From Balanoglossus misakiensis (lineage: Eukaryota > Animalia > Hemichordata): a stretch of DNA of 64,000 nt. Location: NCBI GenBank assembly GCA_040954595.2, contig CM082588.2:8416844-8480843 (forward strand), in the 5' to 3' direction. This document shows, in pieces, positions 5,087 to 63,796 of this stretch. The notes below the pieces were generated by a model that worked only from the letters and a program-made list of their open reading frames with translations, did no database searches and had not been told where the DNA came from. The first letter of the stretch is position 1, and every line of letters starts with the position of its first letter. The translations under genes were made by a program, and so were the position numbers.

Positions 5087-5421
5087 CTATCTCTGAAAAT
5101 GGCCTTTTATCCCACGTCCCACGTCTGTTTGCAGTTTCGTTTCACACTCCTTCACCAATGAGACTAATGCGGGTAGTTCCATTTCTTGAAACAAATCCTT
5201 CAGAAGTGTTAAATCGTCATTGCTGATATGACCCTTCTCTTGCAAACAGTAAAATATATCTGAGGGAGATTTCAAATCATGTAATTCTCGTTTTGGTATG
5301 AAGTCTTCTCTTAACAGGCCTCTGAGATTACGCTCATCATCACTTCTGTTTAAACGCTTCTCAAGTTTCATGAACAGGATCTTCAGTGGATTTAATTTTG
5401 TTGTTTTAAAACACTGTGAGT
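5087..5421 (-). CDS. Gene A last exon: death effector domain (DED)
   Basis: LKILFMKLEKRLNRSDDERNLRGLLREDFIPKRELHDLKSPSDIFYCLQEKGHISNDDLTLLKDLFQEMELPALVSLVKEC matches the DED pattern (IP..L..l.s..dlF..L...g.i...nl.lL..Lf). Confidence 0.8.
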
Positions 5422-8400
5422 CTGTAATGATAATGTTAGTGTTAATGTTATATCATACTAAGGTAAACATAATATGCAAATTACAACTTTTTTTCTCAAA
5501 TCTGATCTAATAGACCATTTTGATATTCTGACATATGTAGCTTGTATGATTTTTTTTCCAGAGATTAAATCACATAAAAGTAGGTTTTAAAATTCCATGA
5601 TTTAAATTAGTTAGTTTCATCCAAATTTCAGTGACCATTAAAGTTTATCCTCATAGATCTGCATAACTGTGAAACTGTCAAACCACAATTTGGAGTTGAT
5701 ACATATTGCAGTAGCATAACATCATGATACTTACCTCCATTCGAAGAGCTGCTACCAACTTGCCTCTCCTACATGAGAAAAAGAGACACCCAAGTCATAA
5801 ATAACAGTGAAAGGGGGAAAAATGTAATATGTTTCAATTTTATTTAAAAAAATGTGCTTGAAAACTTTGCGGTTCTCATTACAGTGATTCCCCATGTCGG
5901 CCAAAACTGGCCAATTATACTCAACCAAGTTGTTGAGTATTGAGACTTTCAGTAGTTGCCTAAACACATTCAATTCCAGATAAAATGCAAGACACTGGGT
6001 CTCCATGGGCAGGCAATGTACAGATGGGCACTGATAAAAGCTTAGCAATCATGGGTGAATAAATTGTGACGGGGCTGTGATGTGTGTGTGTGTGTGGGGG
6101 GGTGTGTGCACCAAGTGATTACAATGCATTAAAATCACCTGGGCAATTGGCCACTGTACTAAGCCAACGACAGGAAAATGCACATACTCATGGTCCACAT
6201 AAGATACATTGAAATGTGATAAATTGAACCCAAAACCTAAATTGAAAATTTTATGACTTGTAAGAATCAGATTACATGTACATGCTTTCTCTGCACTCAC
6301 ATCATACAGCACGGACATCTGTTTGTGGTACAACAATGTCATTTCAATTATTCACAAGCTAATACGTTTAGGTGGGTTCTTACATTTGGCATTGCGAATA
6401 ACAGCTCAACAGTTGGTGGGTCATCATTTTTCTGAAACAGCATACGTCCTTGCAGACCACGACCTCCTGGCCTGGCTTTAACGACAACATCCCAGTGGTT
6501 ATCAAAAAATGGGTAGTATGGTCTCTTGTTCAGCACTGACTCCAGATCATAATTCCCTTCTGCGGGGACAGTATTTTTGACAACATCTCCGTATTTCAGC
6601 TCAATATCAGAACTGTATGTTGTTCTTTTATCAGTGTATTGTTTATATTTCTCTTCAGTTTGTAATAAATCTGTAATGGATTCTTGTTCTTTGGCCTCCA
6701 CCAAGTCACATCTTAAGACTGTTGCAGTATCCTTGTGCTCAAGAAGAAGAATCTTTACAATCTGATTTCCAGACTTCTTGAAGTCTGTGATGGTTGATAG
6801 CATGTAACAAATTCGTGGCATGACTTCTTTGATGTATCTTCCCAACGAATATCTGAAAACAATTCCAGACACTTTCAAGGAATGAAAATGGTGAAATGCA
6901 ATTAGATGTTAATCATAGATTACGGAAGGGGTGTGTTATATCACCATTACCTGTGGATACAATAACATCCAATCAAAGGAAGATTTCTTCCGTCAGAGCA
7001 ATATCAACATAACTGCAGTCATTACATTGCATTTCCAAGACTATGATGGTGTATTTTTACAGAAGAAGACTTCAACCTACCCACTCAGTATCTGAGCGTG
7101 AAATTCCACCACATCGCGTTGTACAGTAAAAGAACAATCCTTGGTAACATCCTTCCAGTCACAATTACCATCTTCATCTTTAAGTATGCACAGTTCTGTA
7201 TCATCAGATGCTACACGTGGGATGTCTGGTGGCAGTGGGATGGTTACTTTTACAGGCTTCTTGAACTTCATTCTTTCCCTCTGGCCTCGATTGATATACA
7301 CTATGGATGCGAAGGACACATCGAGAGATTCTCCACCAGTTGGGAAGACACTATCAACTGTGTTATAGCGACAGTCATGGACCTTCAATACGAACAATAA
7401 GCCTCATTGAATGTTGTCACTATAGCAGTACATACATGGATACCTGGCTGAATTATCTCCTGTCTAAGAGTTTAACTGCTTATGGCTGCAATTTGGCACA
7501 ATCAATCAATCAATCAACTGATGCAGGCCCATGCAGCTCCTTCTTAATCCATTGTCATGTTAATCTCTATGTGGGGTAATACCAGGTATGGGTAAATGTT
7601 GGTGGTTGTGGGGATGATGATGATATTTACCTCTAATATCATAGCCTTTTCATCTTCTACGGCATCTTCTGGAACAACGATGCTTATCCGTTCGTCTTTT
7701 TTTGAGGTAAATTTTCCACCTTCTTTGCTGATATCAAATGTGTCTTTATAAGGTCTTGAAATTGCGATGTAAAATGAAAAATGGCAGACTTCTACCTTGA
7801 TATGATTGTCTTCCTGAATATGAATCAACATTTAATGGTAACACTTTTACTTTTTGTGTGTGGTCAGAATCTTCGTGAACAACTTATTAGCACTCCGAAG
7901 ATTTAAACCAGAGAAGCTACACAAACGTGTAAAAGGCTTGGGTCAGCAGGTCTCCGCAGCCTTTTCAACTCTTGTGGAACATAAAAAGTCACACCGCCAT
8001 TTTGGTCGTTGGACAACGGACAAAACATGGCTGGTGTGGTTGGTTATTTCCACATCGAGGCTCACGTGGAATTTGAATGTTGGTGTAAATCCTTGTATTA
8101 AGGCACATCAACAACAAAGCAAATATACTCCAATTGGACAAAACCAAGGTGGAAAAGTGTTATTTGTTAGAAACAGAAACATTTTCTCAGAGACGGTGTT
8201 TTGTTTTGCCAAATGGAAGGTCAGTAGGCTGCAATGACTGACAATTTACATGTCCATGGATACATACATGCACATACCTATACTAATATATATTTACTGA
8301 AATGCAATAATGGTCGAGTTATACGTAGTAAAACTTCACTGTGTAGATCTGTGCTGTAGCATACTTACTTTGACAGTTTTCAACTCTTCCCATGTTTCAC

Positions 8401-11400
8401 CAGTTTTGCTTGTCAGGATGATCTGTTCTCTCTCAAACGGCTGAACATTTAAACACTTCCTCACAAGGTAGACTGGTTTCTTTAGTGTAATGTGATCTGC
8501 CTTAATATCAAGGACATCTGACTGATACCATTCAAAGTCTGCAAGAGGGACCTTGGTGACGTTATGGTTACATGTGACCGACAATGTTGTGTCTTCTTCC
8601 ACACATGCTGGCGGGACCTCGAGTGAAAATCCACATGGTAATTTGTAGGAACGTCTTTCCTTTAATGGAAAAGGAAAACATTGCATTACAAAACCAGAAA
8701 TGGGGCTGGAAATCACACCCCCCCTCCCCATTGAAGGCTAAAATGTAACTAAATTCTGTCATAAAACTCGAATGCATTTGCAAGCAAAAGCGAAGCTCCA
8801 GAGACCAGATCTATTTTATATAATATTTCAAGGCCTTAAAAATGAACAGTTTGAATAGAAAAAGCAATGCGTATACGCTAACCTGCCGGGTGCATGCACT
8901 GTTGCAAGCTGAAAATAGTACATATCATAGTTTCACAATTTGTAGATGTCCATTGAAAATTGTTTTAACCCATCTAGAATACTGTTTAAATACAATTTAT
9001 CAAACATAATCGGTACGTGTGGTCTGCATTGCAAACAACCTATTTAGAAAAAAATACAAATTCATAAAAATACACCGATTTAACGTCAATCATCATGCCT
9101 ACCTCATTAGCAGCAATAAGCTGAATCGATCTTTGGTCTTGAATATCCTCTGAAATGCAGATATGTTAGGGTAGTAGTTGGAATTACTAAGATATGATTA
9201 CTGTTCATGTTTTAACATAAATCAAGCTTGAAATTGTAAATTTCTCCGGTTTCAAGTCTGTGGGACTTACATGGTTTTTTTCACTTGATATGCACTGAAC
9301 TTCTACATATTTCTGCACGTCATAATACCCTAATTGACTTTTTCTTATTAAGTAATAACCCCCGCCGCAGGCGGGTATACGCGAGATTTGGGTACAATTT
9401 GAGACATATAGCACGAGCCGTTATGGAGCGAATTGTACCCAAATCGAGTCGATCAACCTCTAAGGCAACCATTGCATTATTGTCATCTGCAGGTATAACA
9501 TTGTATAAAGATCGATAATAGGCAAAATAAATTGTATTTATTCTCATTAAAAGGAGCATATTTTTTCTTAATAGTGCGGAAGTACCCCTTTGATGAAAAC
9601 ATTTCAAACAAATCGATTATCAGCTGGAAACATAAGAACCTATGGAAGCGTTCAAAATATCATATGTCATGTCATATTGTGTCAGCACTTGCCTGGTTCA
9701 ATCAGAATATCTTCAAGTTCTAAACAATTATCTCCACATATATCACAGATGTCAGCCGATTTTACTTCCGGGTCAAAACCTACAAAGAAATAGGTCAACG
9801 TTATGAGATATTTTTATTACATTTCCTATTTACAAGCCGGACAAGTTTCTTTTTTATGGTGAGAAAGCCATTATCAGAAATTGTATACGTGTTTGAAAGA
9901 AATATTTCAATGTTCTAAACTCCGTGAAATATAATCTTATATTAGACCACGGTTTTTATACAGCTCACTGTATTTACCATTTGTACGTAGCCTCTTCATC
10001 TACATTCTCAACAACATCTCTTATATTCTTTGATTTTGTTTGAAAAGCATACTGCATTTCAACTCGTATAATGTTTGACATGAAAATATAAGGATAAAAC
10101 GGATAATCTCAAATACATTTGTTCACAGTCTGGTCTAAGCATTTTCGTCACCGGATATGAATATTAATTATTCCATGTAAATTTAAATCGAGTACAAATG
10201 ATTGCTCTAAAATCAGCTTACCTTCTTTCATGTACTTCAATTCTGCCCTACACCGTCTATATCGCCACACCTCTATGGTTGTCTTAAGGGGAACATCTGA
10301 TACGTTTAATCCACGAAGCATAGATTCTGTGACGATATCAGCCTTGAATAATTCCCCCAGTTGCCCTCGTCTGTAGTCACTCCATAATTTCTCCAACGCC
10401 TCTGATGTCTGACATGCCAACACAACACACAGACACCCTTGCTTGATTTCTTGAATTGTAATTCCACCAACGCTGTTCAGATACTCTTTCACCTTTGGTA
10501 AATCGTCTTCAGATTTGATGCTGTAAATTTCTCTTTCTATGTGTTCAACTTGATCTGGAGTCAAGTTGGAACCGGAGACGTCAATGTGAATCTCGATTTC
10601 TCCTGAAATATAGTTTATTTTTTAAATAATGCATATGCATGTATCTTTTTGTCATCGAATTGACTATAGTGTGATGTTTTATCTTGTTGCCTCAATTAGT
10701 ATAAAGATAGAATCATGGATGTGTTTACGTAATTAATATTTTTACCTCGAGTTGTTCTGAAGGTATGTGTATAAGTTTGTCCTCCACCAGAAGCTTGTCC
10801 GTCGTTGTGGTCATCGTTACCATCTCCACTTTTACACTCGTTTCCGGATGGGAGAGTTTCAGCCTGTCCTTCTTTGCAGTTGCCAATGGAGATCGAACTT
10901 CCTTGTTCCTGGCCTGGGATTGTTTTCGGGTTGTCGACCCCTTGAACGAGGGAAGAAAAAATTGTAGGAATCTAAATGTCAACATCTTTTAATTTAGAAT
11001 AATACATTTGTCAGTGTTATGAAGCATATATGCAAATTTAAATGTGAGCATATATCTACATGTGTAACACTTTGTCGTGATGCAAGATACAGTTCTGATT
11101 AATCATGCAAATTTTAGTCTTAAGTTGACAACACTTTATGTCGGTATTTTAGTCCTTTCATTCATGATCAGTGAAAATCTTTATGACGTGTAAAATTTTC
11201 TTCTTGAAGACAGTCATTATCATTTACCTTTTGAGGATTCTTCCCCAGGGTCTTCACACTCTGCAGAACTAAGTGTAGAAGAATCCAGCAATTTCTTTTG
11301 TTGAACTGCAATGAAACCATTCTCTGCGGATGTATGAAGTGCTTTACTCAATTCTTGGGATGCGCGTTGAGCACGACCATATTTACACAGGACAGTCATG

Positions 11401-12497
11401 ATGGTGTCTAACCATTTGTTACTTTCGCTTTTGACATTTTGGCATTGTCCAGTGTCACATGACGGGACAGAGATGGCGGGGAAGTGTTCGGCTATGAACG
11501 ATGCAAGGCCTGATTGCTTTGGTTGTATTGTGGGCACACCGGCAGCACAAGACATAAGACCGATCACACCAAATGGATCACCTTTAGTTGTGAATATTAC
11601 CACGAGGTCACACTGCATCAGATCTTTATTTAAGTGGTCCATCGATGCCTTGTTTGGATATAGCCGAATATTCAACAGGTGTGATGCGGCCATCTTCTCC
11701 AGTTTCCGCTGAAACTTTTCGCATGGTGTTTGTGTTACAAGTCCTCTGAACTTCCACTTTGTGTTGTTATCGGAGTAGTTAAAGTAGCGAGCTACTTTTC
11801 CCATGCTACGTGCTGCTGCTTCGAATTCCTCCAGATCTTGCAGACTTGATATTGTGTGTACAGACAGGACTTCTATAGTGTTCCCTAACTCTGAATTACT
11901 AGCTGGACGCTGACCAACACCCATCTTTGCCAAGGGAATGTACTGCTCATGCGCCACTTCTGAATTCAGAGAAACTTGAATCTTCCTCTTGTAGTCATCG
12001 CATACTGATGGACCAACTGACAAAATGGCGGAAGCAGTATTGATATATTCCATAATTTCACCATCAAGGATTTCCAAATCGGAAGGCTCCAAGCTCATGT
12101 TGTCTGTCAAATCAGACAAAACTGGAACGAATCTCGGAATCCCAAGATCCTTTTGAATACACTTTGCAACATCGGCAGTTCCGTTCTTGCAAGCAGTACC
12201 ATATATTGTTGTAATCGGGAGACATTTCTTCAACTCGGGGAATCGGTCAAGGTGACAAATTAACCAGTCCCTTTCCGGTTTCTGATTTCTCTTTACAGTT
12301 GGAAGAATCAACTCGACTCCATGTTTGCTCGCGTCCTCCACCTCTGCGTCAGTTGCTTCCAAAACCATGAAGGAGACTTTATTTTCTCTGACAGCAAGGT
12401 CTATCGCTAGTTGTCTTTCAGTGATACATGTTGCTATGTTACGCCTTCTAGGCCACCATTCTTCTCCAACAACCAATACCCGATTACTGTGAGACAT
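5087..12497 (-). CDS. Gene A (spliced model, 1197 aa): GT4 glycosyltransferase-like + TRADD-N-like + ZU5-ZU5-UPA + death effector domain (PIDD-like C-terminal half)
   Basis: Exons 12497-11228, 10940-10746, 10602-10222, 9779-9693 (GC donor), 9149-9103, 8659-8369, 7813-7631, 7382-7081, 6852-6384, 5768-5735, 5421-5087. All are flanked by AG and GT/GC with compatible phases; the sum is 3594 nt, an open frame ending at TAG. The join between the two halves (9693->9149) is inferred. Confidence 0.65.
6384..6852 (-). CDS. Gene A exon: UPA-like domain following the ZU5 pair
   Basis: Beta-rich 156-aa exon directly after the second ZU5, ending ...GLQGRMLFQK...; position equivalent to UPA in PIDD/ankyrin/UNC5; phase 2->0 junctions fit. 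Confidence 0.6.
7081..7382 (-). CDS. Gene A exon: C-terminal part of second ZU5 domain
   Basis: ...ASIVYI...MKFKKPVKVTIPLP...ELCILK...WKDVT...VVEFHAQILSG, the typical ZU5 F.KPV.vtiPlP / W.DvT motifs. Confidence 0.8.
7631..7813 (-). CDS. Gene A exon: end of ZU5-1 (HFS motif) and start of ZU5-2
   Basis: EDNHIKVEVCHFSFYIAISRP...ISKEGGKFTSKKDERISIVVPEDAV, parallels PIDD1 'HFSW...VSRP...GG.L.S...v.v.fP.gA'. Confidence 0.85.
8369..8659 (-). CDS. Gene A exon: first ZU5 domain
   Basis: LPCGFSLEVPPACVEEDTTLSV...VPLADFEWYQSDVLDIK...LKKPVYL...EREQIILTS..GETWEELKT, ZU5 motifs. Confidence 0.8.
9340..9486 (-). pseudogene. Truncated copy of the gene-B 105-aa module exon, broken by a small inverted-repeat element
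   Basis: DDNNAMVALEVDR matches gene B exon 22404 up to ~9450. It is then replaced by GATTTGGGTACAATT...AATTGTACCCAAATC and CCCGCCTGCGGCGGG hairpins, with an in-frame stop at 9320. Confidence 0.7.
10222..10602 (-). CDS. Gene A exon: TRADD-N-like domain
   Basis: ...VKEYLNSVGGITIQEIKQGCLCVVLACQTSEALEKLWSDYRRGQLGELFKADIVTESML...LKTTIEVWRYRRCR, the invertebrate TRADD-N-like pattern (GSl.i.v.c.t.eaLe.LW.dY.sG.L); symmetric phase 1-1 exon. Confidence 0.75.
11228..12497 (-). CDS. Gene A exon: GT-B fold family-4 glycosyltransferase-like domain
   Basis: VLVVGEEW...RQLAIDLA, GVELI.P, ILSVGP, DLMQCDLVVI...DPFGVIGLMSCAAGVPTI.PKQSGLA, the GT4-type found in invertebrate immune proteins. Confidence 0.85.
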
Positions 12498-16290: not shown

Positions 16291-16516
16291 GCGCGTTATC
16301 CATGTTCACGGACAATAAGGACAGGGTCGTGATGAGAGGGGACTGCAGTTTGAGGGATTGTTATAATTCAGTGCCGACCACTTGCATCAAAGTTGAACAC
16401 AACAAAACACAAGGTTGTGTACTTTCCGAAATGTTTATTAAAAATAATAAAATATAGGTAAAAAGGCAGCGGTCTGGTTAAGTGGAGTCACCGAGCGTCA
16501 CTGTCCTTCAAGAAAT

Positions 16517-18680: not shown

Positions 18681-19883
18681 TTATTTTTTTTCCTGTTCAG
18701 ATAACCTTGCTTTGTACTCCTGTGCATACTTGCCCGAGAAATACTCTTGACCACAGGCTTCTATTATGTTTAGGTATTTCAGTGCATTGGCAGAGTCATC
18801 TTGTGCTTGGTAAACGTGGGCAAGATTATAACATGCCCATAGTATGTGATATGGGTCAGAGAGGGTGCTGATCAGATGGGTAAATATTTCACATGCATCA
18901 CTGTACTGTTTCAAGTTTGTGAGGGCATCGGCCTTCCAGAGTGAAGCAAGGGGATACAAACCACCTGCATATGCAACTGCTTTGTCGAGACACTCTATGG
19001 CTTTTAACAGGCACTGACGATTGCTTTCTATCGGATTGTGTTGGTATTTGGCCACGTATGTGACTCCTAGGTATAACGCGAAAAATGGATTGTCTGGATC
19101 TTGTGCTGCAGCATTGTGAATAACTTGCAGTGCTTTTTCGAAGTCTGGAACATTGCTGTGGCAGTAATAAAGACGTGCAGACTCCACCGTGAAATTGGAT
19201 AAAGGGGTTAATTCGAGTGCTTTCTGGGTGAGTTGACCTGCTTCTTCATAGCGACCTTCATCAAGTGACAGCTTACTTAAAAATGACAAAGCATAGCTGT
19301 GATGGGCATTTTTCTTAAGAACTCTCTCAAGCAAATTTCTTCCTTGTGCCATTATTTGTAAAGCTTCCAGACATTTTGAATCTCCACAGACACGATCACG
19401 TTTGTACGCAAAAGAGAATGCTTGCCAAAACAGCCAATCTGTTTGTTCTGGAAGTTCTACTAAAGCACGATCAAAGCTATCAATTCCCTCATCACACGTT
19501 TTTTTGCGAAAATAAGAAAGAGAGACACCCTTGTGAGCATATACATACGCTTTCTGTTTCCCTGACAATTTATCAAGTGACAAAGATGTTATCAACTTCA
19601 GTGTTTCATCAACTCTCTCCATCTCACCCGACATGAAATAAACCCATGCTTTATCTGCAAGAAGAACCAACTTATCACCAAGTGGACCATCGTCGTCACC
19701 ATCACAGCTGTCAAGTTCTTTCTGGTTGTCGGTGAGGGCGTCATCAAACCACTTCAAAGCGGCACTTGGATCTCTCTCGTCTTCTGATCTCAGTTTGGAC
19801 ACGTACAGGTAACCTTTCATTGCTTTATGGGGAACTGGAGAGACCTCCTGGTTGTGATGTTTAAGGGTGTCGTCCAATCTGCA
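18681..19883 (-). CDS. Gene B last exon: IFIT-like tetratricopeptide repeat domain
   Basis: Multiple TPRs (ALKWFDDAL, LVLLADKAWVYFMSGE, AYVYAHKGVSL, FDRALVELPE, GRYEEAGQLTQKALELTP, KAIECLDKAV) arranged as in IFIT proteins; preceded by the CHFTW exon. Confidence 0.85.
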   Translation of the reverse strand, partial: CRLDDTLKHHNQEVSPVPHKAMKGYLYVSKLRSEDERDPSAALKWFDDALTDNQKELDSCDGDDDGPLGDKLVLLADKAWVYFMSGEMERVDETLKLITSLSLDKLSGKQKAYVYAHKGVSLSYFRKKTCDEGIDSFDRALVELPEQTDWLFWQAFSFAYKRDRVCGDSKCLEALQIMAQGRNLLERVLKKNAHHSYALSFLSKLSLDEGRYEEAGQLTQKALELTPLSNFTVESARLYYCHSNVPDFEKALQVIHNAAAQDPDNPFFALYLGVTYVAKYQHNPIESNRQCLLKAIECLDKAVAYAGGLYPLASLWKADALTNLKQYSDACEIFTHLISTLSDPYHILWACYNLAHVYQAQDDSANALKYLNIIEACGQEYFSGKYAQEYKARLSEQEKK

Positions 19884-22800
19884 CTGTAAGAACTACAGTA
19901 CATGGAAAGGTATATGTTACAGTGTCATGTGAAAACACAGGTGTTTGTACAGATGCAATGTTGATATTTTATTGATTGTAATTAAGGTCGCTAAAATGAT
20001 AAGATCTCCCGATTTCACGTTATACGAGCGCTCGCACTATGTTCAGGCCTATACCCCACTGACACATAAACAGATAAAGAAATCTCCTAATGTGTCAGTG
20101 GGGTATAGGCTCGAACTAGTTGTATGACGCGAAATCGGGAGATCGTCTAAGCTACTGATTTATCGTTTATAGCCACCTTCCAATTAATAAAATATCTGTG
20201 TGTGAAAACATCAGACGCATGATTGAAACAAAATAAGATGTGATTGATGAAGAAAACTCTAATGATTGACAATTTTTTTAAATATTACACTTTAAATGAT
20301 GCAAAAAGTGGATATTCAGCATGTTGCTTTTTATATTTCAATTTGAGTCATTATTTACATCTGAGAGAAATAAACATTTCCTTGGTTTTCGTGACATTTC
20401 AACAATTCAGATACAGCTGTTATGAAACGTTGTACTTCAAATACTCAAATAAATGTCCTCACCTCAAAACTACGGTCACAAAATTCTTCGAGTTTCCAGG
20501 TAAAGTGACAGGGAAACCTTTGCAGTATTTCTTCATAGGACTTTGCTGTATGCTTCAATCCCGTTATGTGTGTAACTGAAAATTCTATTGAATAGTAAAA
20601 ACAAAGTTTGGAATTTAAACTGATTTCACGATTTTAATTTTAAATTGAGATTGGTCTATTGAAATTAGCTTTTATTTATTATGGTATGCCTACATTTTAT
20701 GAGAGAGTTGAGTTGTATCAAACAGTGAATGAAACAACAGAAATATCTATCAGCGCAACAACATAAATTAAATATCTATCAAAAGAAACTAAAACAACCA
20801 AAATAACGTCAATATTGAGTGATCTTGTTCATTCAGTTTTTTGAAGCAATATTCCTGTGGGAAAATCAGTTGAAAACTAATAATTGAGTTTAAAAATAAA
20901 TATTCCGGACCATGTTAAAGGTATACGGTCACCTATGGAAAATTAGCTATAGTTATCATGGCAAATTGAGATCTAACCAATCACAGATTTTCAGTCAGTG
21001 GGTGGCACATGCGAAAAAAAAGAGCGCCGCCTTATGTTCTTTAGAACGATCAAATACCCCATTTCAGCCATGTATGGGCATGTGTAAATTGGACGTGACC
21101 ATATAACTTTAAGTATATTATAATCATTTTGCAAAAGATTGTCAATTGCAGGAAAGAAAGGGAAGATTTTGAGACCGAATTCTTAAATTTGCTTTTGCTC
21201 CTAGACCCAACAAATCTGTGATAGACAATAAATTTGGCCTTTCAGGGTCATGCATACTTTCATAATCGAAGTTGTTAGGAGCATATTCTTTTTTTTTCAG
21301 TAGGAGCAGATGATATAACTGATGCATGGATATGTTGCACATAACTGCATTACCTTCGATGTTTTTGTCTACAGGTGGCGCAGTTGCACTTTTCGTTTCC
21401 TTAAGTTCGTCGATAGTCTGAAGTAACTGCCGATTTTTGTCCATGGTCGTTTGATTTTCCTCTTTCAGTTTGATATTTATCATGGTTAGTTTCGAACTTT
21501 GGTTTTCACTGCTCTTCAGCATTTCCTTCAGACGCTGACTTGTCTGCTCAGTTTCTTCACCAAGAACACGAATTCTTACTTCACTTTCTCTCTTAAGGAG
21601 CGTATATTCCTTCTCCTTGGATTGTAGTATGTCTTGAATCTTCTTGTTTTCGTTAAAGAGCGAAGTGATGACAGAGAGATAGTTGTCTGTCGAGATTGGT
21701 TCCAAAACACGAGCAGCTCCTTCTTTTGAAAAAGATTCAGCTAGAATCTTGTCTGATTCTTTGGTGCCAGTTTTCAAGATGTTGACGCCACTTTGATTGA
21801 CAAGTCTCTTCAGTTCTGATGAAAATGTGATTCAATATTGTTAGCAAAATGTTATATATGATCGATACGATGTAACCCCCTTTGCAATTGGGTCAGAGGC
21901 AATAGAATGCAAATAAATGGGCACTATCTATTTTACTTTATGCTCGATGTGCAAATCAATGGCAGACTAGTACAGACCTATCTTTAAAATCATACTTCAA
22001 CAAGCAGCCAACTAAACCAAAACATTCCCTTTAGAACAAATTTCAGCAGCAAGCTTGTTTGTTTAAAAGAAATGTTTGTGAACACTGACCTTCTCTCTCA
22101 TATCTGAATGTCTCTCCCTCTTGTAAGGTGATTGAAGACAACTGTTGACTATCCAAAATCAAACACCGTCTGATTCCTAGGACACCAAGAACTTCTGGCC
22201 GTTCATCCAACAACGAAGACAACTGTAGAGGGCGCTGTATTTTTATCAACAGGACTATTGGTGTCTGTGTGTCTCCCACATCAACATCTATCTCAGCTTC
22301 CAAAGTGCCGGAACCACCAAGTAGTTTTGATAAACCGATTCTGTTTTGGCGTGTGGCATAGACATGTCGATCAACCTCCAAGGCAACCATTGCACTATTG
22401 TCATCTGCAGGTACAAAGATCGATAATAGGCAAAATAAATTGTATGTATTCTCATTAAAATGAGCACATGTTTTACTGAATAGTGCAGGAGTATACTTTT
22501 TATGCAAATATTTCAAACATATGGATTATCAGCTAGAAACATAAGAACCTATGGAGGCGTTCAAAATATCACAATATGTCATATCATATCTGTAAACACT
22601 TGCCTGGTTCAATCAGAATATCTTCAAGTTCTGAACACTTCTCTCCACATATTTCACAGATGTCAGCCGATTTCACTTCCGGGACAAAACCTACAAAGAT
22701 ATACGTCAACGTCATGAGATGTTTTATTTATTACATCTCCTATTTACATGTCGGACAAGTATTTTGTGATGGTGAGAAAGTCATTATCGAGAAATTTAAG

Positions 22801-25366
22801 GCCAAATAAAAAAATGTGTTGTTCCGATTACCCTACCCTAATTTTAGGCCGCCGACCCTAAACTTTTTGGAGCTTCGTAAACCGAAAGTAAAAATAACGA
22901 TGTCAAATATACAAAATTTGTGAAAATTGCGAGAATCTCGCAAGAACTACGACTGCCAAAGATGTAAAAAATTGCAATTGAGTACAAACGATTGCTCTGA
23001 AATCAGCTTACCTTCGTTCATGTACTTCAATTCTGCTCGACACCGTCTATATCGCCACACCTCTATGGTTGTCTTAAGGGGAACATCTGATACGTTTAAT
23101 CTATGAAGCATAGATTCTGTGACGATATCAGCCTTGAATAGTTCCCCCAATCTCCCTCGTCTGTAGTCACTCCATAATTTCTCCAACGCCTCTGATGTCT
23201 GACATGCCAATACAACACACAGACACCCTTGCTTGATTTCTTGAATTGTAATTCCACCAACACTGTTCAGATACTCTTTCACCCTTGGGAAATCATCTTC
23301 AGATTTGATGCTGTAAATTTCTCTTTCTATGCGTTCAGCCTGATCTGCAGTCAAGTTGGCATTGTCGACGTAAATATGAATCTCGATATCCCCTGAAATA
23401 AAGTTTATCAATATTATAATACATTGGCGTGAAATAATTTAACTTCAGCCTGACCACTCATGTATTGAACACGCAAGGGATAAATCCACCATCTTTAAAA
23501 TCTGTTGACCGCATTTAAATGTCAGGGCGGGAGAAAACCACTTTTGTTCGAAACATCCCATAATTTTTGATGGAGAAATACATATATTGTATTGTGAGTG
23601 TGCTTACGTAATGAATATTTTACCTCGAGTTGTTCTGAAGGTATGTGTGTAAGTTTGTCCACCACCAGAAGCTTGTCCGTCGTTGTGGTCATCGTTACCA
23701 TCTCCACTTTCAAACCCGTTGCCCGGTGGAAGATTTTCACCCTGTCCTCCTGCGCTGTTGCCATTGGTGATCGAACTTCCTTGTTCCTGGCCTGGGATTG
23801 TTTCCGGGTTGTCGACCTCTGGAAAGAAGTAAGAAGCATTGCAGGTATCTAAATGTCAACATCTTTTAATTTAGAATAATACATTTGTCAGTGTTTATTA
23901 TGAAGCATGCAAATTTGATCTTATATCTACATGTGTAACACTTGGTCGTGATGCAAGATAGTTCTGATTAATCATGCAAATTTTAGTCTTAAGTTGACCA
24001 CACTTTATGTCAGTTTTTTAGTCCTTTCATTCATGATCAGTGAAAATCTTAATGACATGTAATATTTTCTTCTTGAAGACAGTCATTATCATTTACCTTT
24101 TGAGGATTCTTCCCCAGGGTCTTCACACTCTGCAGAACTAAGTGTAGAAGAATCCAACAATTTCTTTTGTTGAACTGCAATGAAACCATTCTCTGCGGAT
24201 TTATGAAGTGCTTTACTCAATTCTTGGGATGCGTGTTGAGCACGACCATATTTACACAGGACAGGCATGATGGTGTCTAACCATTTGTTACTTTCGCTTT
24301 TGACATTTTGGCAGAGTCCAGTGTCACATGACGGGACAGAGATGGCGGGGAAGTGTTCATCTATGAACGATGCAAGGCCTGATTGCTTTGGTTGTATTGT
24401 GGGCACACCGGCAGCACAAGACATAAGACCAATCACACCAAATGGATCACCTTTTGTTGTGACTATTACCATGATGTCACACTGCATCAGATCTTCCTTT
24501 AAGTGGTCCATCGATGCTTCGTTTGTGTGAAGCTGAATGTTTAATTGACGTGACGCGGCCATCTTCTGCAGTTTCCACCGAAACGTTTTGCATGGTGTTG
24601 ATGTTACAAGTCCTCTGAACTTCCACTTAGTCTTTTTATCATAATAGTTAAAATGGCGAGCAACTTTTCCCATGCTATGCGCTGCTGCTTCGAATTCCTC
24701 CAGATCTTGTAGATTTGATACTGTATGTACAGACAGGACTTCTATAGTGTTCCCTAATTCTGAATTACTGACTGAACGTTGGTCAACACCCGTCTTTGCC
24801 AAGGGAATGTACTGCTCGTGCTTCACTTGTGAATTCACAGAAGCTTGAATCTTCCTCTCATACTCATCGTATACTGATTGTCCAACTGACAGAATGGCGG
24901 AAGCCGTATTGATATAGGCCATCATTTCATCATCTACGATTTTCAAATCGGAAGGCTCCAAGCTCATGTTTTCTGGCATTTCAGACAAAACCGGAACAAA
25001 TCTCGGAATCCCGAGTTTATCTTGAATACACTTTGCAGCATCAGCAGTTCCATTCTTGCAAGCAGTGCCATAAACTGTTGTAAATGGGAGACATTTCTTC
25101 AACTCGGGGAATCGGTCAAGGGGACAAATTAACCAGTCCCTTTCCGGTTTCTGATTTCTCTTTACAGTTGGAAGAATCAACTTGACTCCATGTTTGCTCG
25201 CGTCATCCACCTCTGCGTCAGTTGCTTCCAAAACCATGAAGGAGACTTTATTTTCTCCGAGTGCAAGGTCTATCGCTATTTGTCTTTCAGTGATACATGT
25301 TGCTATGTTGCGCCTTCTAGGCGACCATTCCTCTCCAACAACCAACACATTGTTAATGCGAGACAT
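18681..25366 (-). CDS. Gene B (spliced model, 1341 aa): GT4-like + TRADD-N-like + 105-aa module + coiled coil + IFIT-like TPR domain
   Basis: Exons 25366-24097, 23818-23624, 23392-23012, 22690-22604 (GC donor), 22404-22090, 21815-21354, 20575-20463, 19883-18681. Splice sites and phases are consistent; the sum is 4026 nt, an open frame. Confidence 0.8.
19982..20187. mobile_element. Intronic fold-back MITE (TTAA-GG end)
   Basis: GATCTCCCGATTTC/GAAATCGGGAGATC (20003-20144) and GCCTATACCCCACTGACACAT/ATGTGTCAGTGGGGTATAGGC inverted repeats. Confidence 0.65.
20463..20575 (-). CDS. Gene B exon: IFIT N-terminal signature
   Basis: Encodes VTHITGLKHTAKSYEEILQRFPCHFTWKLEEFCDRSFE; L..l.CHFTW.L is the hallmark N-terminal motif of IFIT proteins. 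Not in the ORF track on this strand. Confidence 0.85.
20915..21112. mobile_element. Kolobok-like MITE with TTAA target duplication
   Basis: TTAA-AGGTATACGGTCACC...GTGACCATATAACT-TTAA; the paralogous site at ~60955 is empty with a single TTAA; second copy at 45714-45906. Confidence 0.85.
21354..21815 (-). CDS. Gene B exon: coiled-coil region
   Basis: Heptad-rich E/K/Q/L sequence; phase 1-1 exon; paralogs at 61203-61619 and 62717-63175. Confidence 0.75.
22090..22404 (-). CDS. Gene B exon: conserved 105-aa module (possibly a divergent TRADD-N/ACT-like fold)
   Basis: DDNSAMVALEVDR...FRYERE; three intact copies in the window, each exactly 315 nt and phase 1-1. Confidence 0.7.
23012..23392 (-). 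CDS. Gene B exon: TRADD-N-like domain
   Basis: Near-identical to exon 10222-10602. Confidence 0.75.
24097..25366 (-). CDS. Gene B exon: GT4 glycosyltransferase-like domain
   Basis: Paralog of 11228-12497 with the same length and motifs. Confidence 0.85.
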
Positions 25367-41285: not shown

Positions 41286-41390
41286 GTTGTTCTCAGCGAC
41301 ACAGGGGAGAGCTGAGAAATAGCTTGGACGTATTTGGTAGTTGTTTTCAGTGTTTCGATTAGGTAAAATCAATGTGATTTTAGGGGGGAG

Positions 41391-42289: not shown

Positions 42290-42294
42290 CTATA

Positions 42295-52590: not shown

Positions 52591-52606
52591 CAATTCGTAA
52601 TTTTCT

Positions 52607-53830
52607 TTATTGCTGATTGCAAAATTGGACCCGTTTCTTTTGTTGAGGGGGCTTTGTTTTCGCTTCCCGTGCCATTTTAGCCAAGATATACTCCAGCCCA
52701 CACTCTTCTGCTTTGTTCATGTATTTCAGTGCATTGGCAGAGTCGCCTTTTGCTTGGTAAACGTTGGCAAGATGATAACATGCACATGATATGAAGAATG
52801 GGTCAGAGAGGGTGCTGATCAGATGGGTATATATTTCACATGCATCACTGTACTGTTTCAAGTATGTGAGGGCAACGGCCTTCTGGAGAGAAGCAGCGGG
52901 ATACAAACCACCTGCATATGCAACTGCTTTGTCGAGACACTCTATGGCTTTTAACAGGCACTGACGATTGCTTTCTATCGGATTGTGTCGGTATTTGGCC
53001 ATGTATGTGACTCCTAGGTAACACGCGAAAATTGGATTGTCTGGATCTTGTGCTGCAGCATTGTGAATAACTCGCAGTGCTTTTTCGAAGTCTCGAACAT
53101 TGCTGTGGCAGTAATAAAGACGTGCATAATTCACCGTGAAATTGGATAAAGGGGTTAATTCAAGTGCTTTCTGGATGAGTTGACCTGCTTCTTCATAGCG
53201 ACCTTCATCGAGTGACACGTCACTTAAAAGTGCCAAAGCAAAGCTGTGATGGGCATTTTTCTTAAGAACTCTCTCAAGAAAATTTCTTTCTTGTGCCATT
53301 ATTTGTAAAGCTTCCTGACATTTTGAATCTATACAGACACGACCACGTTTTTGTGAAAGAGAGAATGCTTGCCAAAACAGCCAATCTGTTTGTTCTGGAA
53401 GTTCTACTAAAGCACGGTCAAAGCTAACAATTCCCTCATCACACGTTTTGTTAAGAAAATAAGCAAGAGAGACACCCTTGTGAGCATATACATACGCTTT
53501 CTGTTTCCCTGACAATTTATCAAGTGACAAAGTTTCTATCAACTTAAGCGTTTCATCAACTCTCTCCATCTCACCCGACATGAAATGAACCCATGCTTTA
53601 TCTGCAAGAAGAACCAACTTATCACCAATTGGACCATCGTCGTCACCATCACAGCTGTCGAGTTCTTTCTGGTTGTCGGTGAGGGCGTCATCAAACCACT
53701 TCAAAGCGGCACTTGGATCTCTCTTGTCTTCTGATCTCAGTTTGGACACGTACAGGTAACCTTTCATAGCTTTATGGGGAACTGGAGAGAACGCCTGGTT
53801 GTGATATTCAAGTCTGTCGACCAATCTGCA
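52607..53830 (-). CDS. Gene C last exon: IFIT-like TPR domain
   Basis: Paralog of 18681-19883 with many amino-acid replacements. Confidence 0.85.
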   Translation of the reverse strand, partial: CRLVDRLEYHNQAFSPVPHKAMKGYLYVSKLRSEDKRDPSAALKWFDDALTDNQKELDSCDGDDDGPIGDKLVLLADKAWVHFMSGEMERVDETLKLIETLSLDKLSGKQKAYVYAHKGVSLAYFLNKTCDEGIVSFDRALVELPEQTDWLFWQAFSLSQKRGRVCIDSKCQEALQIMAQERNFLERVLKKNAHHSFALALLSDVSLDEGRYEEAGQLIQKALELTPLSNFTVNYARLYYCHSNVRDFEKALRVIHNAAAQDPDNPIFACYLGVTYMAKYRHNPIESNRQCLLKAIECLDKAVAYAGGLYPAASLQKAVALTYLKQYSDACEIYTHLISTLSDPFFISCACYHLANVYQAKGDSANALKYMNKAEECGLEYILAKMAREAKTKPPQQKKRVQFCNQQ

Positions 53831-56800
53831 CTGTAAGACCTACAGTACATGGAAAGGCATGTTACAGTGTCATGTGAAAACACAGGTGCTTGTACAGATG
53901 CTATGTTGGTATTTTATTGATTGTAATTAAGGTAGCTAAAACGATACGATCTCCCGATTTCACGTCATATGAGCGCTCACACTATGTTAGGGCCTATACC
54001 CCACTGACACATAAACACATAGCCCAGGAAGTTGGATGGAAGAAATTGTTTCTCTCCTCCTTTACTACAAGGATTACGGATGCCTGCAAACAAGAATGGT
54101 TGGTCCATGTTACGAATAAGCCAAAATTGCGTACCTATGTAACTTTTAAGAGTTTACTGGCCCCTGAAAAATATTTATCACTGAACTGTAATTACAAGAA
54201 CATCCAAGTTTTTGCACGTTTCCGACTTGCAATAGAGGAAGTGCGACATTATGGCATTGATCCTAGACATAGGTGATGTACATTATGCACATTAAGATGG
54301 GTCCCCGGGATCTTTTTGCCCGTTGCTATGGGCCTTTGCAGGACATTACACCCCGATTTGGACTAAGCCGTTTTCAGAGTCTAACAAGGGGCTGGTAACT
54401 AGTTGAAAATCTGCACGATTGTGAGCGCGCGCCCCCTGACGCCATTGATATGCAAATTAGCTAGGTCAAATTTCAAAAGCCTAAGGCTTCAAATTCCAGT
54501 TCCACTTGAAAGGCTTGGCTGAGTGGAGAATGGCGGAGGGGGATCACTGGTTGAATAGCAAACAAACACACACACACAGGAACAGGTATCTTGGATCAGT
54601 AGGGGTATTTATTAGGACCAAAACTACTAGACACTGACAAACTACAAGTCACGTGTTGGGCCCCATTGTAATGCAAATGTAAATGCAAATGAGGTCTGCT
54701 GGCATAGGGGCCCAACACTGCTAACCTAACTATTACACTACTAAACTATGGACTAAAGTCCCCAAGACCCAAGATACCTGTGGATGTAGGGTGTAAATTT
54801 AAGAGCTAGGGAGCTGGGAGGCGAACTGGTTGATACTCAGAATGCGAAGTGGGAGAGATGGGTGAAGATACTTTCTAAAGGAGTCACTTTTCCAGTCACC
54901 CAACAACTTAATAAGTTCAGGAGAAATACCACACTGCAAGGCCCAAGATGCACCACCCCGTCGGAAACTATGAGTGGAGTACTGGTCAACATTGTGGACA
55001 ATAGGGGTCAACAGACTGAGCAAACGCTTGGAGAAGGCGGGTGGGAGAAAGGGACGGGCGGGAGGGATGACAAAGGCTGGGCCATCCATAGGGGCAGGGG
55101 TAGCTAGAAACGCCGAAAGGACAGCAGAAACCGGGCAAAGGGGATGTCCTGGGAGGATGGGGAGAGGTACAGTAAGTTCACGATCCTTGGTCTGAATGGT
55201 TTTTGACCACCTAACAACCACACCAAGACCCCAGGAAAAAACCAAGAAGTCGCCGCGAGTAAGATGCTTGGAAGAGTCGAACAACTTCAGAGAAGGTGGG
55301 AGTACATTTGATTTTCGAAATAACCCGAAAAACAGAACAAGACAAATAGCCCAGAAGACTAAATCAACAGTAAGGGATAGGTCTAACTGAGACTGAATAC
55401 CCAACAAAATGTGAGGGGTGACAGGAAGTTTACGGCAAACAGAAGTACCCTTCACACGGGCCACACCTTTAAGGATAGTTAAGACAGTATCTTAACAATG
55501 TTAAGATACTGGCGGATAGAAGAGACCTTCAGGCGTCTAGCGAGATAAACTACATACCTACACAGGACAAGAGGGTCCACCGGTACAGGACAGTAACCAA
55601 AAGACAGACAAAATTCCAGATAGGCCTTGCGGTGAACCGCATAAGAAGCTTTAGTGGACTGGGCAAAAGTGTGGCCTCTGTAGAAAGCAATTTCTAAATC
55701 CAGCTCATTTTCTAGCTGCTTCAGTTGGGAATCTGAGGGCAAAGAAACAGAGCAGTAGTAGGAGACATATGGTTATAAAAAGTAGCAATAAAATCTGAAA
55801 AGGGGACTGCAGGGCTGTAATGAGAGCAAAGAAGAGAATAAAGACGCCAGGCTTGACCTGCTTGATGTAGCCGTGAGATAGCATCAGGGATGTCATTATC
55901 TTTACCTGGGACATGCATTGCTCTCATGTTGAAATTGTAACGCACAGAAAGCCAAAATAAATCACGAAGGGCGGCCATAACTGCAGGATTGCGAGAAGTA
56001 CCATGATTGATACAGGCCATGGCAACAGTACTATCAGTGAAGATATGGACAGTAGAATTTGTCCAATGTTTTGCCCAACGTCTGGCAGCTAAAATGATGG
56101 ACAGAACCTCCTTATGATTGATATGCAGAGATGCGACTTCAGGCCAGTCGCAGGACCAACGGGTGTACTGCCAGTCTCCTTTGTAGAAAATACCAGAGGC
56201 TAAATTAGATGCATCCATGTGAACATCTGTAATAGGACGAGGGTCAATAAATTTAGTAGCACCATTGAACAAAGGCAGGCATTGTAACCACCATTTAATA
56301 TCAAGGTGGAAATCCTTAGAAAGAAGCATTTTATGCGAAGAACAGCGTAGTTTGTTTAGCTGGGAGAGGATTCGCCGGAGGAAAGTTCTACCTCCTTTGA
56401 TCACTCGGCATGCCCAAGCTAATTTGCCAGTAAGGGTTTCAAGTTGGCGGCGGCTAGCTCGTTTTCTCATGGAAAACGTCAAGAGCAGTTTGTATAAATC
56501 TGTAAGCTTCTGCGGCGGTAAACTTAAAGTAAGCTGCAAAGTATCAATTTCCACACCAAGGAAAACTAACCGTTGTGTGGGGCCATCTACTTTTTTCCAA
56601 GCAATGCGAAAACCTAGTTGCCTAAGTAAGCGGAGGAGAGTATTAAGGGCCTCTAAGCAGGAATTGTAATCGGGAGCAACAATAAGAAAATCGTCAAGGT
56701 ACACAACCATAGCATCAATGCCCCTGCGTGCCATCATCCGCCTGACACTCTGGGTTAGCCTATGAAAAATGCTAGGAGAGAGTTTTGCACCAAAGGGCAA

Positions 56801-62800: not shown

Positions 62801-63796
62801 TGCCCTTTAGTTTGATGTTTTCATCCATGGTCGTTTGATTTTCCTCTTTCAGTTTGATATTTATCATAGTTAGTTTAGAACTTTGGTTTTCACTGCTCTT
62901 CAGCATTTCCTTCAGACGCTGACTTGTCTGCCCACTTTCTTCACTTTCCCTCTTAAGGATAGTATATTCCGTCTTCCTGGATTGTAGTATGTCCCGAATC
63001 TCGTTGTTTTCGTTAAAGAGCGAAGTGATGACAGAGAGATAGTTGTCTGTCGAGATTGGTTCCAAGACACGAGCAGCTCCTTCTTTTGAAAAAGATTCCG
63101 CCAGAATCTTGTCCGATTCTTTGGTGCCAGTGTTCAAGATGTTGACTCCATCTTGATTGACAAGTCTCTTCAGTTCTGATGAAAATGTGATTTAACATAG
63201 TTAGCAAAATGTTATAATTAATATGATGTAACCCCATTTGCAATTGGGTCGGAGGCCGTGGAATGCAAATAAATGGGCACTATCTATTTTACTTTACGCT
63301 CGATGTGCAAATCAATGGCAGAATAGTACAGACCTATCTTTAAAATCATACTTCAACATGCAGCCAACTAAATTAAAACATTCCCTTCAGAACAAATTTC
63401 AGCAGCAAGCTATATATGTTGATTAGTTGAATAGAGTATTGTTTGACCAACTTCCCTGCCTAAATGTTTGTGAACACTAACCTTCTCTATCATATCTGAA
63501 TGTCTCTCCCTCTGGTAAGGTGATTGAAGACAACTGTTGGGTATCCAAAATCAAACACCGTCTGATTCCAAGAACACCAAGAAATTCTGGCCGTTCATCC
63601 AACAAAGTAGACAACTGTAGAGGGCGCTGTATTTTTACCAACAGTACGGTTGGTGTCTGTGTGTCTCCCACATCAACATCTATCTCAGCTTCCAAAGTGC
63701 CGGAACCACCAAGTAGTTTTGATAAACCGATTCTGTTTTGGCGTGTGGCATAGACAGACCTGTCAGTCTCCACGGCAACAACTGCGCTCTTGTCAT
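52607..63796 (-). CDS. Gene C (5'-truncated by window): (module + coiled coil) x2 + IFIT-like TPR domain
   Basis: Exons 63796-63482, 63175-62717, 62236-61922, 61619-61203, 60619-60507 (CHFTW), 53830-52607; phases compatible; the ~6.7-kb last intron holds nested transposons. Confidence 0.8.
54799..55732 (-). CDS. Tyrosine recombinase (frameshifting deletion near 55480)
   Basis: N-terminal AQSTKASY..YLEFC..CRYVVYLA..SSIRQYL; catalytic R (LFRKSN), K (WSKTIQ), HSFRRGGA, GDWKSD, KYL. Confidence 0.9.
55721..57375 (-). CDS. Reverse transcriptase + RNase H (DIRS/Ngaro type, no methylase domain)
   Basis: RLIHDCS, AKVDLKSAYR, LPFG..SPSIF, VYLDDFL, DAS, INHKE, FTDS, PGKDNDIPDAISR; frame is open from just after the ORF1 stop codon. 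Confidence 0.92.
57376..58623 (-). CDS. Gag-like ORF1 with C-terminal Cys/His finger
   Basis: YLAYT.KI..LA..Y.W.SVIQYDREYR..Q....FEWG motif of YR-retroelement gag; ICLGFNKGNCKFGPTCNYAHVC...C...H. Confidence 0.85.
   Translation of the reverse strand: MDPSGMLTLNLTPRSQRSLVEEGNSVPETSPEVQHWATENDLTPDTIARLSTAGFVTMKSIRLIQAEHIQMLEIEPMAQRCLLEEAINHLNRSTSSNTTDSRPPQHSTGGSTPLDSDATRSEVRGSNMAATIDNNTETDRLLQQLLNQPPTNPTAAPAGTTPLQSLLNTLLDSRTLNNSCNTANQPRADLNPRVYMQTKDKGEKYADILDYLSLGDRVTEQTVISTGENGTRLVLESDSRKPRLESVSPSQWMGANVAILYEKIENGSLQGNGILNYLAYTRKISQLANRYTWSSVIQYDREYRQYQANHNFEWGADISHLTKVHLREKLQFPPSNKGVTQQSGKSYTQAEGKAARSPAPIDTQSGKPICLGFNKGNCKFGPTCNYAHVCLDASCRKAHPRTAHDGTPSSSSKNF
60507..60619 (-). CDS. Gene C exon: IFIT N-terminal CHFTW signature
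   Basis: ...YEEILQRFPCHFTWKLEEFCDLSFE; 113 nt, same phases as the gene B exon. Confidence 0.85.

What the first reader, a model, noticed from the sequence alone, without database searches (positions are those of the whole stretch)
18681..20575. IFIT-like domain in an apparent invertebrate, fused at the C-terminus of a large multidomain protein
Seen: a 113-nt exon missed by the ORF track encodes ILQRFPCHFTWKL and splices in phase to a 400-aa TPR exon; the same arrangement recurs at 60507-60619 and 52607-53830. Known: CHFTW is the N-terminal signature of vertebrate IFITs, which are stand-alone interferon-induced binders of 5'-triphosphate/cap0 viral RNA. Inference: here the IFIT fold acts as a receptor domain wired to signalling modules, a role not typical of vertebrate IFITs.
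Basis: partly seen in the sequence, partly recalled or inferred. Interest (0 to 1): 0.85.

Follow-up and report, generated by a model that had tools for sequence, protein, structure and literature searches.

The report
Acorn-worm IFIT domain lost RNA grip
An acorn-worm-type gene ends in a true relative of the vertebrate antiviral IFIT proteins, fused behind a sugar-transferase-like domain and an immune adaptor, but this IFIT part has lost the positively charged residues that IFITs use to hold viral RNA and changes fastest exactly there, so it likely serves as a variable pathogen sensor for something other than RNA ends.

Summary
The 113-nt CHFTW exon and the TPR exon end an intact 8-exon, 1344-aa gene: GT4-conflict glycosyltransferase, TRADD-N, ACT/ferredoxin-fold domain, coiled coil, IFIT-like domain. 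The same order occurs in Ptychodera and Glandiceps models, so the window is likely an acorn worm. IFIT homology is well supported: best natural PDB hit IFIT5, colinear (E=3e-16); fold Z 26.5 against 20.4 for the best non-IFIT; a reciprocal vertebrate-IFIT profile ranks it above all generic TPRs. TTC22 could not be put in the tree. The domain derives from a hemichordate IFIT-like family. That family keeps the basic RNA-channel residues; the fused clade has lost them (R186, R253/254, R260: 0 of 6-7 rows). These positions are also enriched for differences between paralogs in two species (p=0.009, 0.001). A neighbouring paralog shares the front half but ends in ZU5-ZU5-UPA-DED. So the ppp/cap-RNA receptor reading is weakened; a diversifying sensor on the known GT4/TRADD-N scaffold fits better. 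Expression and binding are untested. The scan noted invertebrate IFIT-TIR relatives before on other DNA.

The parts
24097..25366 (-). Gene A coding exon 1: GT4-conflict glycosyltransferase (aa 1-423). The EX7E position reads D-x7-M (D307). An AG acceptor lies just upstream, so an untranslated exon is likely further 5'.
   Evidence: PF20706 E=3e-29; motif; motif register assigned by eye
23624..23818 (-). Gene A exon 2: Gly/Ser/Asn-rich linker (aa 424-488)
23012..23392 (-). Gene A exon 3: TRADD-N domain (aa 489-615)
   Evidence: PF20694 E=2e-9
22604..22690 (-). Gene A exon 4: short exon with CxxC and a GC donor (aa 616-644)
   Evidence: same exon and GC donor in gene B
22090..22404 (-). Gene A exon 5: domain X, predicted ACT/ferredoxin-like alpha/beta sandwich, possibly a second TRADD-N-like domain (aa 645-749)
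   Evidence: model pLDDT 82.5; Foldseek ACT-domain rows E>=7e-3; VIA best Z 7.5; no Pfam hit
21354..21815 (-). Gene A exon 6: helical region and likely coiled coil (aa 750-903)
   Evidence: weak coiled-coil family hits only
20463..20575 (-). Gene A exon 7: start of IFIT-like domain with CHFTW (C926)
18681..19892 (-). Gene A exon 8: IFIT-like TPR superhelix (aa 942-1344)
61203..63796 (-). Copy C: two tandem units of domain X + coiled coil (exons 63796-63482, 63175-62717, 62236-61922, 61619-61203); 5' end lies beyond the window
   Evidence: 950 aa with no stop when joined to the two IFIT exons
60507..60619 (-). Copy C CHFTW exon
52607..53839 (-). Copy C IFIT-like TPR exon; 56 of 418 aligned domain residues differ from copy A
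5087..12497 (-). Gene B, paralog: same first four exons (GT4 85%, TRADD-N 89% identical to gene A), then ZU5-like, ZU5-like, UPA-like and DED exons; 1223 aa, no stop; an HFS motif follows the first ZU5-like exon; a relic of the start of the domain X exon lies near 9486
   Evidence: DED E=1e-10; ZU5 only E=0.15; second ZU5 and UPA assigned by recalled likeness to PIDD

Best explanation
Gene A encodes a GT4-conflict/TRADD-N protein whose last module is an IFIT-derived TPR superhelix that has lost the basic RNA-gripping residues and varies most at the groove, so it likely acts as a fast-changing sensor for invader molecules other than RNA 5' ends, most likely proteins. Shown: the exon chain, the domain order in three acorn-worm genomes, IFIT homology, descent from within the hemichordate IFIT-like family (unrooted tree), loss of channel basics, groove-biased differences between paralogs, and exchange of the tail for ZU5-ZU5-UPA-DED in a sister gene. 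Inferred: a ligand in the groove would cluster the protein through its coiled coil; the TRADD-N/ACT-fold domains would then recruit adaptors for inflammatory or death signalling, possibly with gene B as a partner; the GT4 domain would glycosylate a target or, with its second EX7E glutamate lost, act only as a scaffold.
For: IFIT homology: IFIT5 E=3e-16, profile 4-369 on residues 9-369; Z 26.5, rmsd 5.5, 410 aligned, against 20.4 for Tom71. Channel loss: basic residue at R186 in 12 of 12 unfused hemichordate rows, 10 of 13 vertebrate-type rows, 0 of 7 fused rows; Arg at 253 or 254 in 11 of 12, 11 of 13, 0 of 6; K/R at R260 in 9 of 12, 13 of 13, 0 of 6; Q288 in 9 of 12, 10 of 13, 0 of 6. Net charge of the four central groove helices: fused -4 to +2 (6 rows), unfused hemichordate +5 to +9 (12), vertebrate-type +5 to +9 (11). 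At the RNA-contact positions listed in Table 5 of PMC9677429, paralogs differ at 6 of 16 against 36 of 316 elsewhere (window, p=0.009) and 10 of 17 against 73 of 349 (Glandiceps, p=0.001); groove-facing helices differ more than outer ones (26/136 against 12/134, p=0.012; 40/140 against 26/137, p=0.04). With 13 anchored sites, 2 of 2 fused pairs but only 1 of 6 control pairs show the enrichment. dN/dS is 1.04 for the domain and 1.4-1.5 past codon 150, against 0.30-0.44 for GT4, TRADD-N and X. PMC8195603 describes GT4 + TRADD-N with variable C-terminal modules in hemichordates.
Against: dN/dS above 1 is not significant (p=0.15), and the dN/dS values come from different paralog pairs, so relaxed selection is not excluded. 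Summed over all nine groove-facing helices the two window copies are +7, inside the vertebrate range of +3 to +10; the four-helix window was chosen after seeing the alignment. E33 is kept and basic residues lie next to the K150 and R186 positions, so RNA could be bound in a shifted register. K150 is variable among vertebrate rows too. Three relatives (P0003, P0004, P0009) have truncated IFIT domains. No ligand, partner or expression evidence.
Confidence: 0.52

Rival explanations
1. One reading: the domain still senses foreign RNA (5'-ppp, cap0 or another end) with a re-arranged set of basic and aromatic residues, and switches on the GT4/TRADD-N front.
For: Whole IFIT fold kept; E33 and an Arg near T37 kept, invariant Tyr at the K150 position in 8 of 8 fused rows; window copies +7 over all groove-facing helices with an acidic outside; unfused relatives keep the basic channel.
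Against: R186, R253, R260 and Q288 lost in all fused rows, R253 is Glu in copy A; K150M alone weakens IFIT5 about 15-fold and Q41E/K150M/R253M about 150-fold (PMC9677429); an invariant ligand such as a triphosphate does not predict hypervariable contact sites; no GAAANNGAAAST element in the window.
Confidence: 0.22
2. The groove is simply free of constraint: the IFIT domain lost RNA binding after fusion and now serves as a structural or regulatory scaffold, or is decaying in a birth-and-death array.
For: dN/dS near 1 and not significantly above; truncated domains in 3 of 7 database relatives of the fused clade; a partial tail duplicate at 52593-52281 and transposon insertions in the array.
Against: Both window copies are intact; N-terminal 150 codons have dN/dS 0.52; differences favour the inner over the outer helices in two species, which drift alone does not predict.
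Confidence: 0.17
3. The domain belongs with TTC22-like or other TPR proteins rather than with IFITs, and CHFTW is a shared older motif.
For: Atlas scores barely separate IFIT clusters (0.97) from TTC22 (0.96); identity to IFIT structures is only 17-21%; PMC3688568 placed its acorn-worm candidates outside IFIT; my tree has no TTC22 and no root.
Against: Exact CHFTW; vertebrate IFITs appear among the best 150 of 1.84 billion representatives while my motif scan showed no TTC22-type start among them (TTC22 motif recalled); the reciprocal profile matches from position 3.
Confidence: 0.06
4. The fusion is a gene-model artefact and exons 7-8 belong to a separate short gene.
For: No transcript seen; database models are predictions and P0003 runs on into the next GT4 gene.
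Against: Exon 7 has an acceptor and no start codon; all phases fit with no stop in copies A and C; the junction is homologous in P0001-P0004, P0009-P0011.
Confidence: 0.03

Closest known systems
Jawed-vertebrate IFIT1/IFIT5 (PDB 4hor, 4hot, 3zgq, 5w5h, 5udi)
   Same: CHFTW start, colinear sequence match over about 365 residues, same predicted superhelix.
   Different: C-terminal module of a 1344-aa protein; an intron splits the domain, whereas most vertebrate genes have one large coding exon (PMC3688568); channel basics lost; window copies lack the last repeats; no consensus ISRE found.
Hemichordate IFIT-like family (RefSeq automatic names 'IFIT1-like/IFIT5-like' in Saccoglossus, Ptychodera, Glandiceps; e.g. 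XP_006812281, XP_070570675, XP_077997910)
   Same: Closest relatives outside the fused clade (about 27-32% identity); the fused clade sits among them in the tree.
   Different: They carry the IFIT domain at the N-terminus, keep a basic groove, and many end in a roughly 300-aa domain with an NxxKH motif (4 of 9 examined) that may be HEPN-like (lead only, 0.84).
Metazoan GT4 + TRADD-N (DEDD2/TRADD-like clade) expansions of Kaur et al. 2021, PMC8195603
   Same: GT4 before TRADD-N, variable C-terminal module, found in hemichordates; UPA-ZU5 fusions are listed for the clade.
   Different: Listed Saccoglossus tails are LRR, Bcl-2, ankyrin or none (30 of 35 rows seen); IFIT is not named in the main text; the GT4 here reads D-x7-hydrophobic.
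TRIF/TICAM-1 N-terminal domain
   Same: An IFIT-like helical domain inside a signalling protein (PMC5397763).
   Different: TRIF's domain resembles only the N-terminal IFIT repeats, is proposed to be autoinhibitory, and precedes a TIR domain.

Membership tests
IFIT family | N-terminal CHFTW motif and IFIT-specific subdomain I | tested here: met
   a profile of only the first 125 positions of vertebrate-type IFITs scores the window domains 26.9 and 24.9 bits, best generic TPR 16.8
IFIT family | Full-length colinear homology and IFIT superhelical fold | tested here: met
   fold tested on a model of the Glandiceps relative P0002 (40% identical to the window TPR exon)
IFIT family | Closer to IFITs than to TTC22 | tested here: inconclusive
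   atlas 0.97 against 0.96; no TTC22 sequence obtained for the tree
IFIT1/IFIT5-type RNA binders | Basic channel residues K150, R186, R253, R260 and Q41/Q288 | tested here: not met
   copy A: Y, Y, E, S, T, Y; copy C: Y, Q, N, S, R, Y
IFIT1/IFIT5-type RNA binders | Binds 5'-ppp or cap0 single-stranded RNA | not testable with these tools
   no coordinates for electrostatics, no assay
IFIT family | Stand-alone protein from a two-exon gene | tested here: not met
   8 coding exons, domain fused and split by an intron
IFIT family | ISRE promoter and interferon induction | tested here: inconclusive
   0 matches to GAAANNGAAAST, 0.66 expected; none of 12 GAAANNGAAA matches lies between 23.4 and 34.5 kb; transcription start unknown
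GT4-conflict/TRADD-N proteins | PF20706 domain N-terminal to a PF20694 domain | tested here: met
   both above the Pfam cut-off in genes A and B
GT4-conflict/TRADD-N proteins | Lineage expansion with variable C-terminal modules | tested here: met
   IFIT-like tail in gene A, ZU5/UPA/DED tail in gene B, X-coiled-coil unit duplicated in copy C and P0001
Active GT4 glycosyltransferases | EX7E motif | tested here: not met
   D-x7-M/L/I in gene A and 4 of 4 relatives; register set by eye; one Glu is dispensable in some GT4 enzymes (PMC8760489), so activity stays open

The most novel reading that the evidence does not exclude
IFIT domains are older than interferon and began as sensor modules wired to effectors: acorn worms keep RNA-type IFITs fused to a possible HEPN nuclease, and have also turned one into a hypervariable, NLR-like receptor whose groove is in an arms race with pathogen proteins and which triggers a bacterial-derived glycosyltransferase, paired with a PIDD-like death-signalling sister gene.
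Probability: 0.25. Interest if true: 0.85.

Novelty: new variant of a known kind. Interest (0 to 1): 0.58.

Why it matters
The one family-wide study I found concludes that IFITs arose with jawed vertebrates and interferon (PMC3688568). Here a full-length IFIT homologue is shown in hemichordates by sequence, fold and reciprocal profile. One branch has been captured as the variable tail of the GT4/TRADD-N immune scaffold and has traded a conserved RNA channel for a diversifying groove. It offers a direct paired test: unfused hemichordate IFIT-likes are predicted to bind RNA ends and the fused ones not. It also gives a tractable handle on the uncharacterised animal GT4-conflict proteins.

Tried and rejected
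No whole genome is held. No RNA run was listed for 18600-25500; this says nothing on expression. The TPR exon alone gave only weak PDB matches (6 sequences; IFIT2 E=3e-5); the CHFTW part is needed for a clear result. The word-based search with a 19-row alignment returned 3 hemichordate proteins and 34 generic TPR proteins, no TTC22 or IFIT-TIR, so the IFIT-TIR form of earlier notes was not checked. The careful tree did not finish; the quick tree is used. Domain X has no Pfam or PDB sequence match, no BLAST likeness to the TRADD-N exon and only a generic fold match (best Z 7.5; TRADD-N not listed), so 'second TRADD-N' stays a guess. The GT4 exon gave no glycosyltransferase match in PDB sequences. 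The tail of the unfused relatives has no HEPN hit in Pfam or PADLOC. A possible short terminal exon near 20855 was dropped because its acceptor is not kept in copy C. No complex prediction was run. Nine paper searches listed no paper describing an invertebrate IFIT fused to GT4 or TRADD-N; most subscription papers are not in the library.
Full report
Observation. The 113-nt exon at 20575-20463 (minus strand) has canonical splice sites, encodes the CHFTW segment and joins in frame to the 403-codon TPR exon at 19892-18681. Six further exons upstream, all ending in phase 1, extend the frame to 1344 aa with no stop. Pfam gives GT4-conflict (E=3e-29) for exon 1 and TRADD-like_N (E=2e-9) for exon 3. 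Exon 5 (domain X) models as a beta-alpha-beta-beta-alpha-beta sandwich (pLDDT 82.5) with only generic ACT/ferredoxin matches; TRADD-N is itself ACT-like (PMC8195603), but I could not assign X to it. A second copy at 63796-52607 is open for 950 aa, has the X-coiled-coil unit twice and carries a DIRS-like element in its last intron. A third gene at 12497-5087 shares the first four exons and then runs into ZU5-like, UPA-like and DED exons (1223 aa; ZU5 only E=0.15).

Origin. The nearest proteins are from Glandiceps talaboti and Ptychodera flava, with the same GT4-first, TPR-last order; 4 of the 8 longer hits were these, the other 4 generic TPR proteins. The window is therefore likely an enteropneust. 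The linker before CHFTW is homologous across these models, which argues against a chance join. The database models are predictions too, and no transcript was seen.

Is it IFIT? A six-row profile matched 41 PDB sequences; the best natural one is IFIT5 (E=3e-16) in one stretch from residue 9 to 369, and one engineered consensus TPR scored higher through repeated short stretches. I could not fold the joined window domain, so I folded the Glandiceps relative (pLDDT 73, pTM 0.70). Foldseek's first non-IFIT row is rank 18 (TM 0.30 against 0.52-0.68). VIA gives Z 26.5 (rmsd 5.5, 410 aligned) for IFIT1 and 26.4 for IFIT5, against 20.4 (rmsd 3.4, 294 aligned) for Tom71. The HMMER scan of 1.84 billion representatives listed 150 of 15,223 hits. 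I picked 28 with long or N-terminal matches and looked up 20: 15 hemichordate (14 automatically named IFIT-like), 4 vertebrate IFITs, 1 unnamed. P0030, P0033, P0047, P0059, P0082 and P0156 were treated as vertebrate IFITs by motif and tree without a name look-up. A profile of 13 such domains scores the window domains 85 and 93 bits from position 3; the best generic TPR among the 203 session proteins scores 73 on an internal stretch. In a quick unrooted tree of 34 rows the 8 fused-clade rows form one group (SH-aLRT 100) among the hemichordate IFIT-likes, next to P0166/P0167 (92), apart from the 13 vertebrate rows. Left out of the tree: P0004 (short) and partial or redundant rows P0019, P0022, P0024, P0025, P0028, P0088, P0141, P0158, P0159, P0161-P0165. 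TTC22 was not obtained; the atlas scores IFIT 0.97 and TTC22 0.96, so that test is open.

Does it keep the RNA channel? I took IFIT5's tested positions from Table 5 of PMC9677429, dropped K415 and K426 (outside the alignment) and mapped 17 through. Copy A has Tyr at K150, Tyr at R186, Glu at R253, Ser at R260, Tyr at Q288; copy C has Tyr, Gln, Asn, Ser, Tyr. The unfused hemichordate relatives keep these positions: basic at R186 in 12 of 12, Arg at 253/254 in 11 of 12, basic at R260 in 9 of 12; fused rows 0 of 7, 0 of 6, 0 of 6. The four central groove helices carry -4 to +2 net charge in 6 fused rows and +5 to +9 in 12 unfused and 11 vertebrate-type rows; rows under 75% coverage were left out (3 fused, 2 vertebrate). 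Against this, the window copies are +7 over all nine groove-facing helices, as vertebrate rows are (+3 to +10), the four-helix choice was made after the fact, and E33 is kept. Helices come from the model's secondary structure, with inner and outer assigned by alternation, not from coordinates.

Is the groove diversifying? Copies A and C differ at 56 of 418 residues; dN/dS is 0.52 for the first 150 codons and 1.46 and 1.41 beyond, against 0.42 (GT4), 0.44 (TRADD-N) and 0.30-0.42 (X) for other paralog pairs. The excess over 1 is not significant (p=0.15). The differences do fall on the channel: 6 of 16 sites against 36 of 316 (p=0.009), and independently 10 of 17 against 73 of 349 in Glandiceps (p=0.001); inner helices differ more than outer ones in both. 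Of six control pairs of unfused or vertebrate-type domains, one shows such enrichment.

Mechanism. The front half matches the GT4 + TRADD-N expansions that Kaur et al. describe in hemichordates, amphioxus and cnidarians, where a constant part is joined to variable modules and GT4 is proposed as an effector. Gene B shows the swap directly. I infer that the IFIT-derived tail is the sensor, that binding clusters the protein through the coiled coil, and that TRADD-N recruits adaptors while GT4 modifies a target or only scaffolds: its EX7E position reads D-x7-hydrophobic in gene A and 4 of 4 relatives, and such glutamates bind the donor in characterised GT4 enzymes, though one can be dispensable. 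A protein ligand is the most likely class for a neutral, variable TPR groove (general TPR knowledge, recalled). None of these steps is tested.

Literature seen. PMC3688568: passages; concludes IFITs are limited to jawed vertebrates and that its acorn-worm candidates are not IFITs. PMC8195603: passages; 'IFIT' 0 times in the main text; in the supplements 2 hits, both inside sequence alignments; file 13 not searched and file 4 cut when stored, so a listed architecture could be missed. PMC9677429, PMC13197388, PMC5397763, PMC8760489: passages. PMC9334734 and PMC6723221: term search, no invertebrate IFIT. PMC10210618 (acorn-worm antiviral response): 0 hits for IFIT or TPR in the main text and in the one supplement held. 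Earlier notes of this scan report IFIT-TIR proteins in other invertebrates; I did not retrieve such proteins.

Verdict. A real IFIT-homologous domain in an invertebrate, in a new fusion on a known immune scaffold, probably no longer an IFIT-type RNA-end binder. New variant of a known kind; interest 0.58.

Noticed in passing
proteins P0012, P0014, P0015, P0021, P0025, P0141, P0157, P0166, P0167: Unfused hemichordate IFIT-likes keep a basic groove and end in a shared domain of about 300 aa; 4 of 9 have an NxxKH motif near the end. Best atlas hit is a RiboL-PSP-HEPN cluster at 0.84 (lead only); no Pfam or PADLOC HEPN hit. A possible RNA-sensor/RNase fusion.
   Followed up: partly
window 5087-12497 (-): Gene B: GT4, TRADD-N, then PIDD-like ZU5/UPA and DED exons with an HFS motif; intact 1223-aa model; relic start of the domain X exon near 9486 suggests the tail was exchanged after duplication.
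   Followed up: partly
window 54799-58626 (-): DIRS/Ngaro-like retroelement (CCCH-finger gag-like ORF, RT/RNase H, recombinase-like remnant) inside the CHFTW-TPR intron of copy C; class name recalled.
   Followed up: no
window 32875-42295 (+): BEL/Pao-like LTR element with 905-bp LTRs 99.7% identical, interrupted near 39570-40185 by a LINE-like fragment; class name recalled.
   Followed up: no
window 12789-18959 and 46348-52593: A 6.3-kb block duplicated at 91.5% identity downstream of both IFIT-like copies, including minus-strand ORFs with an acidic stretch and a GCLPCCG motif (16517-17119, 50084-50533), no Pfam hit.
   Followed up: no
window 52281-52593 (-): Partial duplicate of the end of the TPR exon just after the stop of copy C, closer in its tail to copy A.
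   Followed up: no
proteins P0003, P0004, P0009, P0010, P0011: Database relatives include truncated IFIT domains (P0003, P0004, P0009), an X-coiled-coil-IFIT form without GT4 (P0010) and a nearly bare form (P0011); P0003 runs on into the next GT4 gene.
   Followed up: partly
protein P0107: Unnamed 554-aa IFIT-like protein from an ENA contig on a long branch, with basic R186/R260 positions.
   Followed up: no
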